This document shows, one piece after another, positions 27,745 to 31,100 of a stretch of DNA of 64,000 nt. Below the pieces are notes generated by a model. That model was not told the origin of the DNA. It worked only from the letters and a program-made list of their open reading frames with translations, and searched no databases. The translations under genes were made by a program, and so were the position numbers. The stretch's first letter is position 1, and each line of letters begins with the position of its first letter. This DNA is from Felis catus (taxonomy: Eukaryota): contig NC_058380.1 in the NCBI RefSeq assembly GCF_018350175.1, positions 86,304,001 to 86,368,000 of the forward strand. The letters run 5' to 3'.

Positions 27745-27835
27745 TTTGCTGCTACTCATCTCTCTCCGGCGTCTGCTGAGGGGCAGGGGCCGGCGTCCTG
27801 CAGGTGGCCCAGGGGGCAGGGATGTGGGGTCACAC
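27745..27835 (-). CDS. ST6GALNAC6: ST6GALNAC6 exon 3 (CDPTSLPPGPPAGRRPLPLSRRRREMSSSK); contains the internal ATG (Met35)
   Basis: 91 nt, tgcag acceptor and gtaagt donor. Confidence 0.92.
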
Positions 27836-29439
27836 CTGCAAGCCACAGAAAGGGTTATGGCCACAGCTGGTCAAAGGCTACACCCTCCCCACCCCGCCAG
27901 CTCTCCTACCCACCCATGACTTCAAGGCTCAGGGTCATATGCATTTTGCAGAGAGAGACACTGAGGCCCGGAAAGGGCAGGAACCTGCCTTCAGGTCACA
28001 CAGCCCGGTGGTGCAGAGCCTGACCTCTCTCCTTGCTCTCTCTTTCTCTCTCCCACTCTGCTTCCTGAGCAGGGACCTTCCCACTCATTAGCTCTCCTAG
28101 GCAGCTGGAGGGCCTAAAGCTGGCTCCCAAGCTGGGGGGCTTGCCCCCCACGCAGCAAGAGCCCCACTGTATATTCCTACTCTGACTTAGGTCCCCGTGG
28201 GCTTGGAATAAAGCACTATTCCTTATAGGTCCCCAAACTCCTCTGCACAGGCAGCCCTCCAGAAGTTGCATCAACTGTCCCTCTGTCTAGAATACCCTGC
28301 CCTCTTGGACCCTGCTCATGCCCTCTCAGCGTCCAAGCCTAGGGTAGACCAGGAACTTCCTCTGTGTGTCCCCTCACGGCTAGGCTGAGAGCTCTCCGAG
28401 CGTGCAGCCGGCACAGATCCTCACTCACATTCTCCACTGTGCCTCCAAAGGCGTGGAGGTGGGTGCAGGAGGTTCGCTGAATGACTTCGTTAATTAACAA
28501 CAAGCCCTTAGGAGTTAAGGGCACAGACTGGACAATCGGCTATAACCACAGCCGCACCCTCAGAGGGTAGGTGGGGAGCCTCAAGTAACAGCCCTTCCTT
28601 CCTGCCCCAGTTGGCCCTTAGCAGCCGCAGCTGCGAGGGGACCTCCTCACAGGCCCTAGCTCCTTTCCGACCTCAATTTCCCCACCTGTCAAAAGGGAGT
28701 AAGTACTTGCATCCAGCCACCTCCAGCAGATTCAAGGCCAAAAGGCACTAAGGGAGGGAGAGTGTGCAGAAGAGAAACGGAGGCCCAGGGCTCCCCAGCT
28801 CGGTCCTCCCCTCCAGGGGCCTCCCGGCCCCGCCACTATCCCCACCCCTTGACCTGGCGGCTGTTTACTCCTACACAGCCACCAGGAATAGCCACGGCAC
28901 GACAGGCCAAAGGAGGCTCCCCCCCACATGCCGCTCCTGATTGGTTGGGCCATGACTCCGCCCACTGCCCAACCCCACCCCCTTCTCCGCGGAAGCCCCC
29001 CTCCTCCCAAGCCGGGTTTCAGATTTCAGATTTCCCCCAGGCCGGAGGCCCGGTCAGGGCGCACTGGGGACTCTCACTGGGTACAGTGCCTGCCACACAG
29101 ATCAGGAAACTGAGGCTCATTAGAAGAGAAAAGCAGCTTGTCCTAGGCCTTACAGCCCTTTGGGGAGCAAGACGGGTGTCCAGAATCCCAGGGTCGCGCT
29201 TATGAGCACGGACCCTCTGGCTGGCAGTGCAGGCCATCTCGGTCCAGCCTCCCCTCTCACTACCCTTTGCTTCGGATGCCCCAAGCTCCAGACACACCAG
29301 AGCACTCCAGTTCCCAGGCCGACCCAATACTTTCCCACCTTTGCCCGAGCAGTGACCTCAGCCAGGACCACCGACCCCCTGGTCAGCCCCGTCACACTCC
29401 TGCTCTGGGAAGGTCCTGGTCATACAGCATCTCAGGTGC

Positions 29440-29590
29440 CAGTGCGAATCCCGGTTCCACCACTTACTGGCTGAGGGGCCTCGGGCAAGCCATGTGACCT
29501 CTCTGAGCCTCAGTTTCCTCATCTCTGAAATGGGAATGAATAATAAGAGTAGGTGACTTACGGGGTTGTTGAAAGGATTCAAGCAGCTGC
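29440..29590 (+). mobile_element. MIR SINE (exonized in antisense by ST6GALNAC6)
   Basis: MIR core gaatcccggttccaccacttactggctg...ctctgagcctcagtttcctcatctctgaaatggg. Confidence 0.85.
29468..29493 (-). CDS. ST6GALNAC6: ST6GALNAC6 first coding exon (MACPRPLS); whole exon about 29468-29524, MIR-derived
   Basis: ATG...AGCCA|GTAAGT, phase 2, in frame with exon 3; resembles the human MACSRPPSQ start. Confidence 0.85.
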
Positions 29591-30399
29591 GGCAAGGGAA
29601 GCAAGGAGCTTCAAGTGCTGGGTCAGTGCCTGACAGTAGCTGTGAGTCGTGTGGGTATTCATTGTTGAAGGCCTGCCTCACCTTCAGCTTAAATGCTGCC
29701 CCTTGTTGGACACCTGGCTTAGCCACTTCCCTCTAATATCGAGGAAGGCGTGCAGGGAGCCACACTATGCATCACGCACTCACCCAATCCTCCTGGCCAC
29801 GCTGCAAAGGAAGGGCTCTTACTTCCCATTTCACAGATAAGGAGAGTGAGGTTCAGAGAGGCCAAGCTCCTTGCACAGCTGCCCAGAGTCTGCTGGGGAG
29901 CCTTGTTTACAGCTTGTTTGCAGGGAGCAGCCCAGGGCTGAGCCTGCCAGGATCTCCTTCCAGGATCTCCTCGCGCTGGAAGGGGCCAGAGGCCACCAAG
30001 TGTGTGCCCAGCACCTGGCCCAGCACCAGGGAGCAGGCCTGCTGGGGAGCAACTTGCTAAGGCTGGGGAGGCGGCAGCCCAGAGCACCGGGCCAGGAGCG
30101 TGGCCTCAGCCCCGAGGCTGGTCGTTCAGGAAGAGGGCTCAGTCGTGGGCTAAGGGTGGGGGCCACACCCTGCCCTCTGTTCGGGGGCTTTGCCTCTCTC
30201 GGCCGGGGGGCTGGGGGAGGTGGGGTCCTCCTGCAGGGTCGAGAAGCCCCCACAAGCCGCTCGAGAGGAGGGCTCCGGGGAGGAGGGGGAGGGGGCTCCT
30301 AACGTCTAGATGGGGGAGGGCGCTGAGCCCGTGGGTCCACCAGTGGGGGACGACTCACTCTCTGCGCCCCCTCTTGCGCTAAGCCCCCGATTTCCGCAC

Positions 30400-31100
30400 T
30401 CTGGGGGGGTCCGGAGCCCTAGCGCCAGCTGGGACGAGGAGGGAGGCAGGACGGCGGCAGGTCCCCGAGCTCTAATGGGGTAGTCAGTGGCGGGGGCCCC
30501 GCGAACCCCGCGGCAGCCCTAGGGCGCGAGGACCGGTACCTCCAGGCGCCACCGCCGAGAGCGAGCGGGTCTGGAGGAGCCCCGAGGCCCCGCATCTTCC
30601 CCATCCCTGGCGACTCCCTGCCCCCGCCCCGGGGCGCAGGCAGAGCCCCCCCTCCCGCTGCCCGCCTCTGCGCGGCGCCCGCTCACCTCCCCCGGGGAGC
30701 GCCCGGCCCCCCGCGGCCCCCGAGCCCCCTCACATGGCGCCGGGAGCCGAGAGCCGGGGTCCGCGCTGCTCCGGCCGCCCAGGCCCCGCCGCAGCCCACG
30801 CCCGCCGGGTCCTAGCGCCGCCGCCGCCGCCGCTCTGGCCCAGGCCGGGGAGGCGGGCGGAGCCTGGAGGGGCCGCGGGTGGCTCCGCCCCCCGGGCGGC
30901 GCCGGCGGGGAAGGGCGAGGGGCGGGCGACCCCGGGACCCGGCCGCGCTGGCGCGTCGCTTGCCCCTCTGGGCAGCCGGTAGGGGCAATGAAAACCGCAG
31001 CAGCCTTCTGGAAACCTTCAGTGTGGGTCGGGCCCGCTTCTATCTCGCTTTACTGCCGCCACGACCCGGATGGGGAAACTGAGTCCCGGAGCACGCTGAG
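30400..31100. promoter_or_regulatory. ST6GALNAC6 promoter CpG island
   Basis: Extremely CpG-dense with several GGGCGG boxes. Confidence 0.85.
30687..30840 (-). other. ST6GALNAC6: ST6GALNAC6 non-coding exon 1 (5' end approximate)
   Basis: GAG|GTGAGC donor at 30686 inside a CpG island; GC boxes upstream. Confidence 0.65.

What the first reader, a model, noticed from the sequence alone, without database searches (positions are those of the whole stretch)
27745..29524. MIR-derived ST6GALNAC6 exon starts both the long isoform and a 44-codon overlapping uORF that ends exactly on the internal start (ATGA)
Seen: the exon carries two ATGs, at 29522 and 29493, 29 nt apart and so in different frames. 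The 29493 ATG opens the 333-aa ORF. The 29522 ATG reads MRKLRLREVTWLARGPSA-S-VTPHPCPLGHLQDAGPCPSADAGER after splicing to exon 3 and stops at the TGA inside ATGAGT, which is the Met35 start (MSSSK) of a 299-aa form with a short cytoplasmic tail. Established: overlapping uORFs repress downstream starts, and AUGA stop/start overlaps can support termination-reinitiation. Inference: ribosomes taking the first AUG bypass the long start and terminate on the short start, so a transposon-built switch could set the ratio of long-tail to short-tail enzyme. Caveat: any ATGA contains a TGA, so the overlap could be chance.
Basis: partly seen in the sequence, partly recalled or inferred. Interest (0 to 1): 0.7.

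Follow-up and report, generated by a model that had tools for sequence, protein, structure and literature searches.

The report
Repeat-derived decoy start in ST6GALNAC6
An old repeat-derived exon of the sugar-adding gene ST6GALNAC6 carries an extra out-of-frame start codon, seen in all four main branches of placental mammals, that likely lowers how much enzyme is made; its stop landing on the inner start codon is likely a coincidence and not a restart switch.

Summary
The sequence facts hold: ATGs at 29522 and 29493, a 44-codon +1-frame uORF ending on Met35 (ATGA), and 333- and 299-aa forms. Both forms are already annotated in human. The upstream ATG is the repeat's own commonest base triplet (17 of 29 paralogues), whereas the long-form ATG is derived (2 of 29). 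Annotated isoforms show the uATG in elephants, anteater, pika and a bat. The ATGA overlap is weak evidence: only two earlier sites could give a stop, chance is 0.2-0.6, ATG-A is obligatory in marsupials, no TURBS core is present, and the bat has lost the frame. Human ST6GALNAC6 is very poorly translated in HEK293T (lowest of 116 rows read), but two Ribo-seq catalogues list no uORF for it. Verdict: likely an ordinary SINE-derived overlapping uORF that dampens output, with splicing the likelier setter of isoform ratio. No RNA reads were examined here. The scan had not noted this locus; it noted an analogous MIR uORF exon in NUMB.

The parts
30687..30860 (-). Exon 1 in the CpG island (5' end not determined; 30860 is an arbitrary working limit); main donor after 30687
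   Evidence: sequence; squirrel and fruit-bat annotated proteins map here
30730..30735 (-). Start-stop ATG-TGA, G at -3; its stop lies 45 nt before the uATG and 74 nt before the long ATG after splicing. The same bases likely form an alternative donor that builds an in-frame Met-Cys-Asp start (325 aa)
   Evidence: fruit-bat isoform P0179 reads exon 1 up to this Met; 9 fetched isoforms begin Met-Cys-Asp-Pro; human prediction consistent with a 1-codon uORF
29468..29524 (-). Exon 2, exonised core of an old SINE (MIR by recall and by PMC2194731); acceptor may also be the AG directly before the ATG (55-nt exon), which leaves G at -3
29520..29522 (-). Upstream ATG, inherited from the repeat; G at -3, A at +4
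   Evidence: 17 of 29 paralogous copies have ATG here; annotated as a start in 5 other mammal species
29491..29493 (-). Start of the 333-aa long-tail form, a derived ATG; C at -3, G at +4
   Evidence: 2 of 29 paralogues have ATG here; at least 109 of 436 fetched proteins begin here
27745..27835 (-). Exon 3: most of the 34-aa extension in the long frame and the rest of the uORF in the +1 frame; only 11% T
27797..27799 (-). Internal AG 38 nt into exon 3; if used as acceptor it would put the uATG in frame with the enzyme (330 aa) and turn the long ATG into a 23-codon ORF. Use in this species untested
   Evidence: anteater isoform X3 (P0036) has exactly this structure next to a canonical long isoform X2 (P0215)
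27756..27759 (-). ATGA: Met35 start of the 299-aa ancestral form overlapping the uORF stop
   Evidence: ATG-A forced in marsupials (Met-Asn) and ruminants (Met-Lys)

Best explanation
The repeat-derived exon 2 of ST6GALNAC6 carries an out-of-frame ATG 29 bases before the long-form start, which likely diverts scanning ribosomes and lowers enzyme output from exon-including messages, while its stop on the Met35 ATGA is likely a by-product of older Met-Ser codons and a T-poor exon. Shown: the anatomy, the repeat origin of the uATG, the derived long ATG, and retention of the uATG in four placental superorders as far as annotated proteins reveal it. Inferred: ribosomes pass or restart after the exon 1 start-stop; most then take the uATG (G at -3) and are recycled after 44 codons; the few that leak make the long form, or leak again past its weak context to Met35. 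The uATG would thus cut both forms about equally. The long:short ratio would be set mainly by splicing (exon 2 in or out, alternative donors and acceptors). Termination in exon 3 ahead of several junctions could also expose these messages to NMD (untested).
For: Anatomy and contexts. Repeat origin. The 5' half of the exon matches the paralogue majority at 29 of 30 columns versus 16 of 35 in the same repeat beyond the donor (paralogues were picked by similarity, so this is biased upward). uATG annotated as a start in Elephas, Loxodonta, Tamandua, Ochotona and Phyllostomus (7 of 436 proteins); 12 more read the same 29 nt in the long frame as Asp-Glu-Glu-Thr-Glu-Ala-Gln-Arg-Gly in hamster, horse, meerkat and cetaceans. 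Chance model and absence of UGGGA. Of 41 distinct orthologous long N-termini, 4 cannot hold an early +1 stop whatever the codons and 20 have one possible site. Short form annotated on its own in at least 109 of 436 proteins. Human HEK293T: 10 coding footprints against 1103.5 RNA reads, ratio 0.009, lowest of 116 rows read, median 0.326 (PMC4383229 supplement).
Against: No ST6GALNAC6 ORF is listed in the Ribo-seq ORF table of PMC10032668 or in the files of PMC4739776, although neighbour ST6GALNAC4 is in both, so translation of the uORF is not shown. The human uATG was not seen in any call. The low HEK293T ratio rests on 10 reads, is not length-normalised, and could come from the start-stop alone or from how RNA reads were counted; heavy uORF translation would itself add footprints to the annotated coding region. 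Retention of the 29 nt could serve splicing and not translation. Asp-Glu is compatible with GAC as well as GAT. No RNA reads from this species were examined.
Confidence: 0.55

Rival explanations
1. Passenger ATG: the 5' half of the exon is kept as acceptor and purine-rich splicing enhancer, the uATG has little translational effect, and the start-stop plus splicing do all the regulation.
For: The segment is kept at nucleotide level in both frames. The ATG abuts the acceptor AG (AG directly before it in 23 of 29 paralogues). No uORF is listed in two catalogues. The start-stop could explain low translation.
Against: An AUG with G at -3 only 29 nt before a weaker start is expected to be used by scanning ribosomes (established knowledge); in 55-nt versions the cap-proximal context is still favourable.
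Confidence: 0.18
2. One reading: ribosomes that translate the uORF terminate on ATGA and restart at Met35, raising the short form relative to the long form.
For: Geometry is exact and probably shared by many placentals. Cellular TURBS-free coupling has been reported, though about 82-fold below the upstream product for CASQ2 (PMC5972666 section 16). With assumed numbers even 5% reinitiation shifts the ratio by 11-45%.
Against: Chance 0.2-0.6 and ATG-A older than the long form; no UGGGA; 44 codons is long for factor retention (PMC10275272 passage); a start-overlapping uORF is described as unlikely to act as a typical permissive uORF; frame lost in Phyllostomus.
Confidence: 0.12
3. Dual-use start: the uATG is kept because alternative splicing puts it in frame with the enzyme, giving a third, arginine-rich cytoplasmic tail with its own trafficking.
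For: In-frame uATG isoforms are annotated in 5 species of four superorders. The anteater has both readings of the exon (P0036, P0215). The matching AG exists here and would give 330 aa.
Against: Each lineage uses a different route (acceptor 38 nt in, acceptor 26 nt in, extended exon, extra exon plus a 1-nt shift), as expected of minor splice variants; all are predicted (XP) models; 7 of 436 proteins; none among the felid, primate or murid proteins fetched.
Confidence: 0.1
4. ATF4-like stress switch: after the start-stop, slow ternary-complex loading under eIF2 phosphorylation lets ribosomes skip the uATG and start at the long ATG or Met35.
For: Order of elements matches ATF4: short uORF, then an overlapping out-of-frame uORF (PMC5972666 passage).
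Against: Arsenite lowered translation efficiency to 0.17 of control, Z -0.26, against Z 8.16 for ATF4 (only 10 and 2 reads). Only 29 nt separate the uATG and the long start.
Confidence: 0.05

Closest known systems
Human ST6GALNAC6 RefSeq isoform a (333 aa, NP_038471.2) and isoform c (299 aa)
   Same: Same two starts and lengths (P0126, P0238); the gene is a GT29 sialyltransferase.
   Different: The out-of-frame uATG and the exon 1 start-stop were not found described.
SINE exons in 5' leaders that modulate translation (Alu exons, PMC7786948 passage; MIR exon of mouse 'ST6' in PMC2194731 Table 6 passage; NUMB MIR uORF exon, scan note e1-7855809, not checked)
   Same: An exonised SINE supplies splice sites and an upstream AUG.
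   Different: Here the same exon also supplies a derived in-frame start, and the uORF overlaps the extension it created.
ATF4 leader (short uORF1 plus overlapping uORF2), PMC5972666 passages
   Same: Short upstream element followed by an out-of-frame uORF covering the main start.
   Different: No resistance to arsenite in the one data set read; much shorter spacing.
TURBS termination-reinitiation of caliciviruses and influenza B; cellular candidates SLAMF1, GAD, CASQ2 (PMC10275272, PMC5972666 passages and section 16)
   Same: AUGA stop/start overlap.
   Different: No UGGGA core; overlap explained by coding sequence; no reinitiation shown.
GM3 synthase (ST3GAL5) M1/M2/M3 isoforms (PMC8840164 passages; primary paper not held)
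   Same: A sialyltransferase with alternative N-terminal tails.
   Different: The M1 ER signal needed more than 25 residues from the membrane; the arginine run here lies about 10 residues from the predicted membrane span, so the same sorting effect is not implied and was not tested.

Membership tests
ST6GALNAC6 (GT29) | Pfam PF00777 and near identity to annotated ST6GALNAC6 | tested here: met
   E 6.9e-19; 100% identity of exon 5 to felid ST6GALNAC6
Exonised MIR | Exon lies within an old, high-copy interspersed repeat that supplies the splice sites | tested here: met
   39 other places, 74-95% identity; donor GT in 21 of 29 paralogues
Exonised MIR | Match to a MIR family consensus model | not testable with these tools
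   No repeat library was available; the name is recalled and agrees with a passage of PMC2194731
Overlapping uORF (oORF) | AUG upstream of, out of frame with, and ending downstream of the main start | tested here: met
Overlapping uORF (oORF) | Translated in vivo | tested here: inconclusive
   absent from two human catalogues; gene has few footprints
Overlapping uORF (oORF) | Represses the downstream start | not testable with these tools
   needs a reporter; the low footprint ratio is only consistent
TURBS termination-reinitiation | Stop and start within about 20 nt or overlapping | tested here: met
TURBS termination-reinitiation | UGGGA motif 1 upstream of the stop/start | tested here: not met
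   none within 120 nt; motif defined in PMC5972666
TURBS-free cellular termination-reinitiation | Downstream product depends on stop position | not testable with these tools
   needs stop-shift mutants
ATF4-type delayed reinitiation | Short uORF followed by overlapping inhibitory uORF | tested here: met
ATF4-type delayed reinitiation | Translation resistant to eIF2 phosphorylation | tested here: not met
   on very few reads
DENR-MCTS1 start-stop targets | 1-codon uORF in strong context, predicted drop of at least 15% | tested here: not met
   human gene scores 0 to 12.9% in PMC5473865 supplement; a start-stop is present in the window

The most novel reading that the evidence does not exclude
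One SINE insertion built a three-way start selector for a Golgi enzyme: the repeat's own AUG skips the long start and hands terminating ribosomes straight to Met35 without a TURBS, or, after an alternative acceptor, itself starts a third arginine-rich tail, so that splicing and termination-reinitiation together set where and how much disialyl-glycan synthase a cell makes.
Probability: 0.12. Interest if true: 0.7.

Novelty: new member of a known kind. Interest (0 to 1): 0.3.

Why it matters
ST6GALNAC6 makes disialylated glycans (recalled), and its human mRNA carried very few ribosomes in the one data set read. A start-stop plus a retained overlapping uORF would explain why mRNA level may be a poor guide to enzyme level, and it names the bases to test. 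It is also a clear case of a SINE giving a gene a new N-terminus together with a built-in brake. If reinitiation on the ATGA were shown, it would be a rare cellular, TURBS-free example with an easy two-band readout; the evidence here makes that unlikely.

Tried and rejected
Relatives' genomes: none held, so no orthologous DNA was aligned; conservation rests on annotated proteins. Sequencing runs were listed but no reads were obtained, so exon inclusion, acceptor choice and junction ratios in this species stay open. A search for a stand-alone short protein like the uORF peptide found only truncated enzyme isoforms (4 of 4 hits). Literature searches: gene+uORF 0 papers; gene+MIR terms 1 paper; isoform/start-codon terms nothing relevant; GM3 synthase primary paper not found or not held. 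Not held: five papers asked for by recalled id. PMC8287933 supplement too large to read and PMC5701008 held only 17 kB of supplement: initiation-site tables that could show the uATG were therefore not seen. In-frame-only indels in exon 3 (pig, deer, tenrec, golden mole, pangolin) were not counted as evidence, because annotated long forms must be in frame. The 299-aa human protein lies on at least 1000 contigs and the 333-aa on 6; not used, because such contigs break at splice branches. The scanning model uses assumed numbers and is only illustrative. No fold or complex job was run: the question is not structural.

Full report
Observation. On the minus strand the gene has exon 1 ending at 30687, exon 2 at 29524-29468, exon 3 at 27835-27745 and four further coding exons. 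Exon 5 matches Pfam PF00777 and is 100% identical to annotated felid ST6GALNAC6; ST6GALNAC4-like and AK1-like exons flank it. The ATG at 29522 opens a 44-codon +1-frame ORF whose TGA overlaps the Met35 ATG; the ATG at 29493 opens 333 aa and Met35 opens 299 aa. Junctions are inferred from splice signals and orthologous proteins; no reads were examined.

What was missed. Exon 1 has an ATG-TGA start-stop at 30735 with G at -3, so 29522 is the second AUG. PMC5473865 (passages and one supplement row seen) scores human ST6GALNAC6 at 0 to 12.9% predicted DENR dependence. By my reading of its garbled formula this needs a 1-codon uORF unless several are summed. The same bases likely serve as an alternative donor that builds an in-frame Met-Cys-Asp start of 325 aa: a fruit-bat isoform reads exon 1 up to this Met and 9 of 436 fetched proteins begin this way, though other upstream exons could give the same start. 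Skipping exon 2 leaves Met35 as the first ATG after the start-stop.

Origin of the two ATGs. A search of the own genome with 29420-29600 scored 40 places, 39 of them elsewhere at 74-95% identity; 29 were fetched and aligned. ATG stands at the uATG site in 17 of 29, at the long-start site in 2 of 29; the donor GT is present in 21 of 29 and an AG directly before the uATG in 23 of 29. So the uATG came with the repeat and the long start arose later. The 5' half of the exon equals the paralogue majority at 29 of 30 columns, against 33 of 42 upstream and 16 of 35 beyond the donor; the paralogues were chosen by similarity, so this is a lead, not a rate. The family name MIR is recalled; PMC2194731 (one passage) lists a MIR exon for mouse 'ST6' and discusses ST6GALNAC6.

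Conservation, read from annotated proteins. Among 436 proteins fetched (they include some paralogues, non-mammals and unnamed records), at least 109 begin at the long start, 109 at Met35, and 7 at the uATG. Those 7 come from Elephas, Loxodonta, Tamandua, Ochotona and Phyllostomus; the elephant peptide matches this exon at 17 of 18 residues. Twelve more read the 29 nt in the long frame with at most one change, in hamster, horse, meerkat and cetaceans. The uATG is thus kept in all four placental superorders where it can be seen; human was not seen. In each of the five species a splice variant puts the uATG in frame with the enzyme: lengths fit an acceptor 38 nt into exon 3 (anteater, which also has the canonical long isoform), 26 nt in (pika), an extended exon 2 (elephants) or an extra exon (bat). 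The 38-nt AG exists in this window and would give 330 aa. In Phyllostomus the spacing is one base shorter, so a uORF ending on ATGA is not kept there, unless that is an assembly error.

Is the ATGA ending special? Exon 3 has 11% T. Given the long protein, a +1 stop before Met35 is possible only at Leu7-Ser8 and Leu28-Ser29; 4 of 86 synonymous single changes create one. The first +1 stop falls on Met35 in 20-25% of synonymous resamplings and in 50-60% when the Ser36 codon is kept. Of 41 distinct orthologous long N-termini, 4 have no possible early stop, 20 have one site, 15 two and 2 three. The residue after Met35 is Asn in 4 marsupial proteins and Lys in 8 ruminant proteins, which forces ATG-A; three squamate proteins begin Met-Lys. 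No long form was among the marsupial proteins fetched. The overlap therefore needs no selection.

Mechanism against the literature. PMC10275272 (passages) says that viral AUGA overlaps need a TURBS and that reinitiation falls with uORF length. PMC5972666 (passages and section 16) gives UGGGA as the TURBS core, reports cellular coupling about 82-fold below the upstream product for CASQ2, and says that a uORF overlapping the main start is unlikely to act as a typical permissive uORF. No UGGGA lies within 120 nt upstream of the overlap. Without reinitiation the uATG lowers both forms alike; with assumed numbers 5% reinitiation shifts the ratio by 11-45%, so the idea is testable and not excluded.

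Translation data. The Ribo-seq ORF table of PMC10032668 (supplement searched; rows for chromosome 9 neighbours and X present) and the files of PMC4739776 list ST6GALNAC4 but no ST6GALNAC6 ORF. In PMC4383229 (supplement rows seen: three hits and part 70 of 109) human ST6GALNAC6 has 10 coding footprints for 1103.5 RNA reads, the lowest ratio of the 116 rows read (0.009; next 0.072; median 0.326), and no resistance to arsenite (Z -0.26; ATF4 8.16). This fits upstream repression and also explains why catalogues would miss the uORF, but it does not separate the start-stop from the uATG. Supplements with initiation-site tables could not be read and may bear on this.

Comparison and novelty. Both protein forms are in human RefSeq. 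SINE exons that change translation are a known kind (PMC7786948 passage), and the scan noted an analogous MIR uORF exon in NUMB, not checked here; it had no note on this locus. GM3 synthase isoforms with different tails and locations are the nearest enzyme precedent (PMC8840164 passages). Searches found no paper describing this uORF. Verdict: a real, retained, SINE-derived overlapping uORF, likely a brake; a new member of a known kind; the reinitiation switch is possible but unlikely.

Noticed in passing
window 30730-30735 (-): The exon 1 start-stop likely doubles as a splice donor that creates an in-frame start for a 325-aa form; rodent read-through proteins suggest the same bases in squirrel and mice.
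   Followed up: partly
window 29389-29333, 29197-29168, 28744-28685, 28606-28538, 28329-28232 (-): Further segments of intron 2 match N-termini of annotated isoforms in dog, mink, bats, pig, badger and fur seal: many minor alternative 5' exons.
   Followed up: partly
window 35226-34754 (-): Matches the N-terminus of a meerkat isoform spliced to exon 2: a possible more upstream first exon.
   Followed up: no
proteins P0001, P0003, P0004, P0250, P0264: ST6GALNAC4-ST6GALNAC6 fused products in several mammals, as from read-through transcription or gene-model fusion.
   Followed up: no
canid and vespertilionid bat proteins: None of 18 named canid isoforms fetched begins at the exon 2 long start, and none of the Myotis or Eptesicus isoforms does: the long form may be lost in these lineages.
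   Followed up: no
P0262, P0257 (pangolin): In-frame loss of 8 residues in exon 3 removes the arginine run before Met35.
   Followed up: no
P0140 (mouse isoform 3): A curated mouse isoform bypasses exon 3 altogether and starts in another exon, so Met35 itself is optional.
   Followed up: no
P0322, P0323, P0327, P0365, P0430-P0436: Recurrent truncated isoforms of about 120 aa with the long N-terminus in rodents, carnivores and a bat; likely exon skipping with early stop.
   Followed up: no
long-form residue 28 across orthologues: Leu or Phe precedes the arginine run in 54 of 57 long forms, resembling Golgi-retention LxxR motifs named in PMC8840164; a short-motif likeness only.
   Followed up: no
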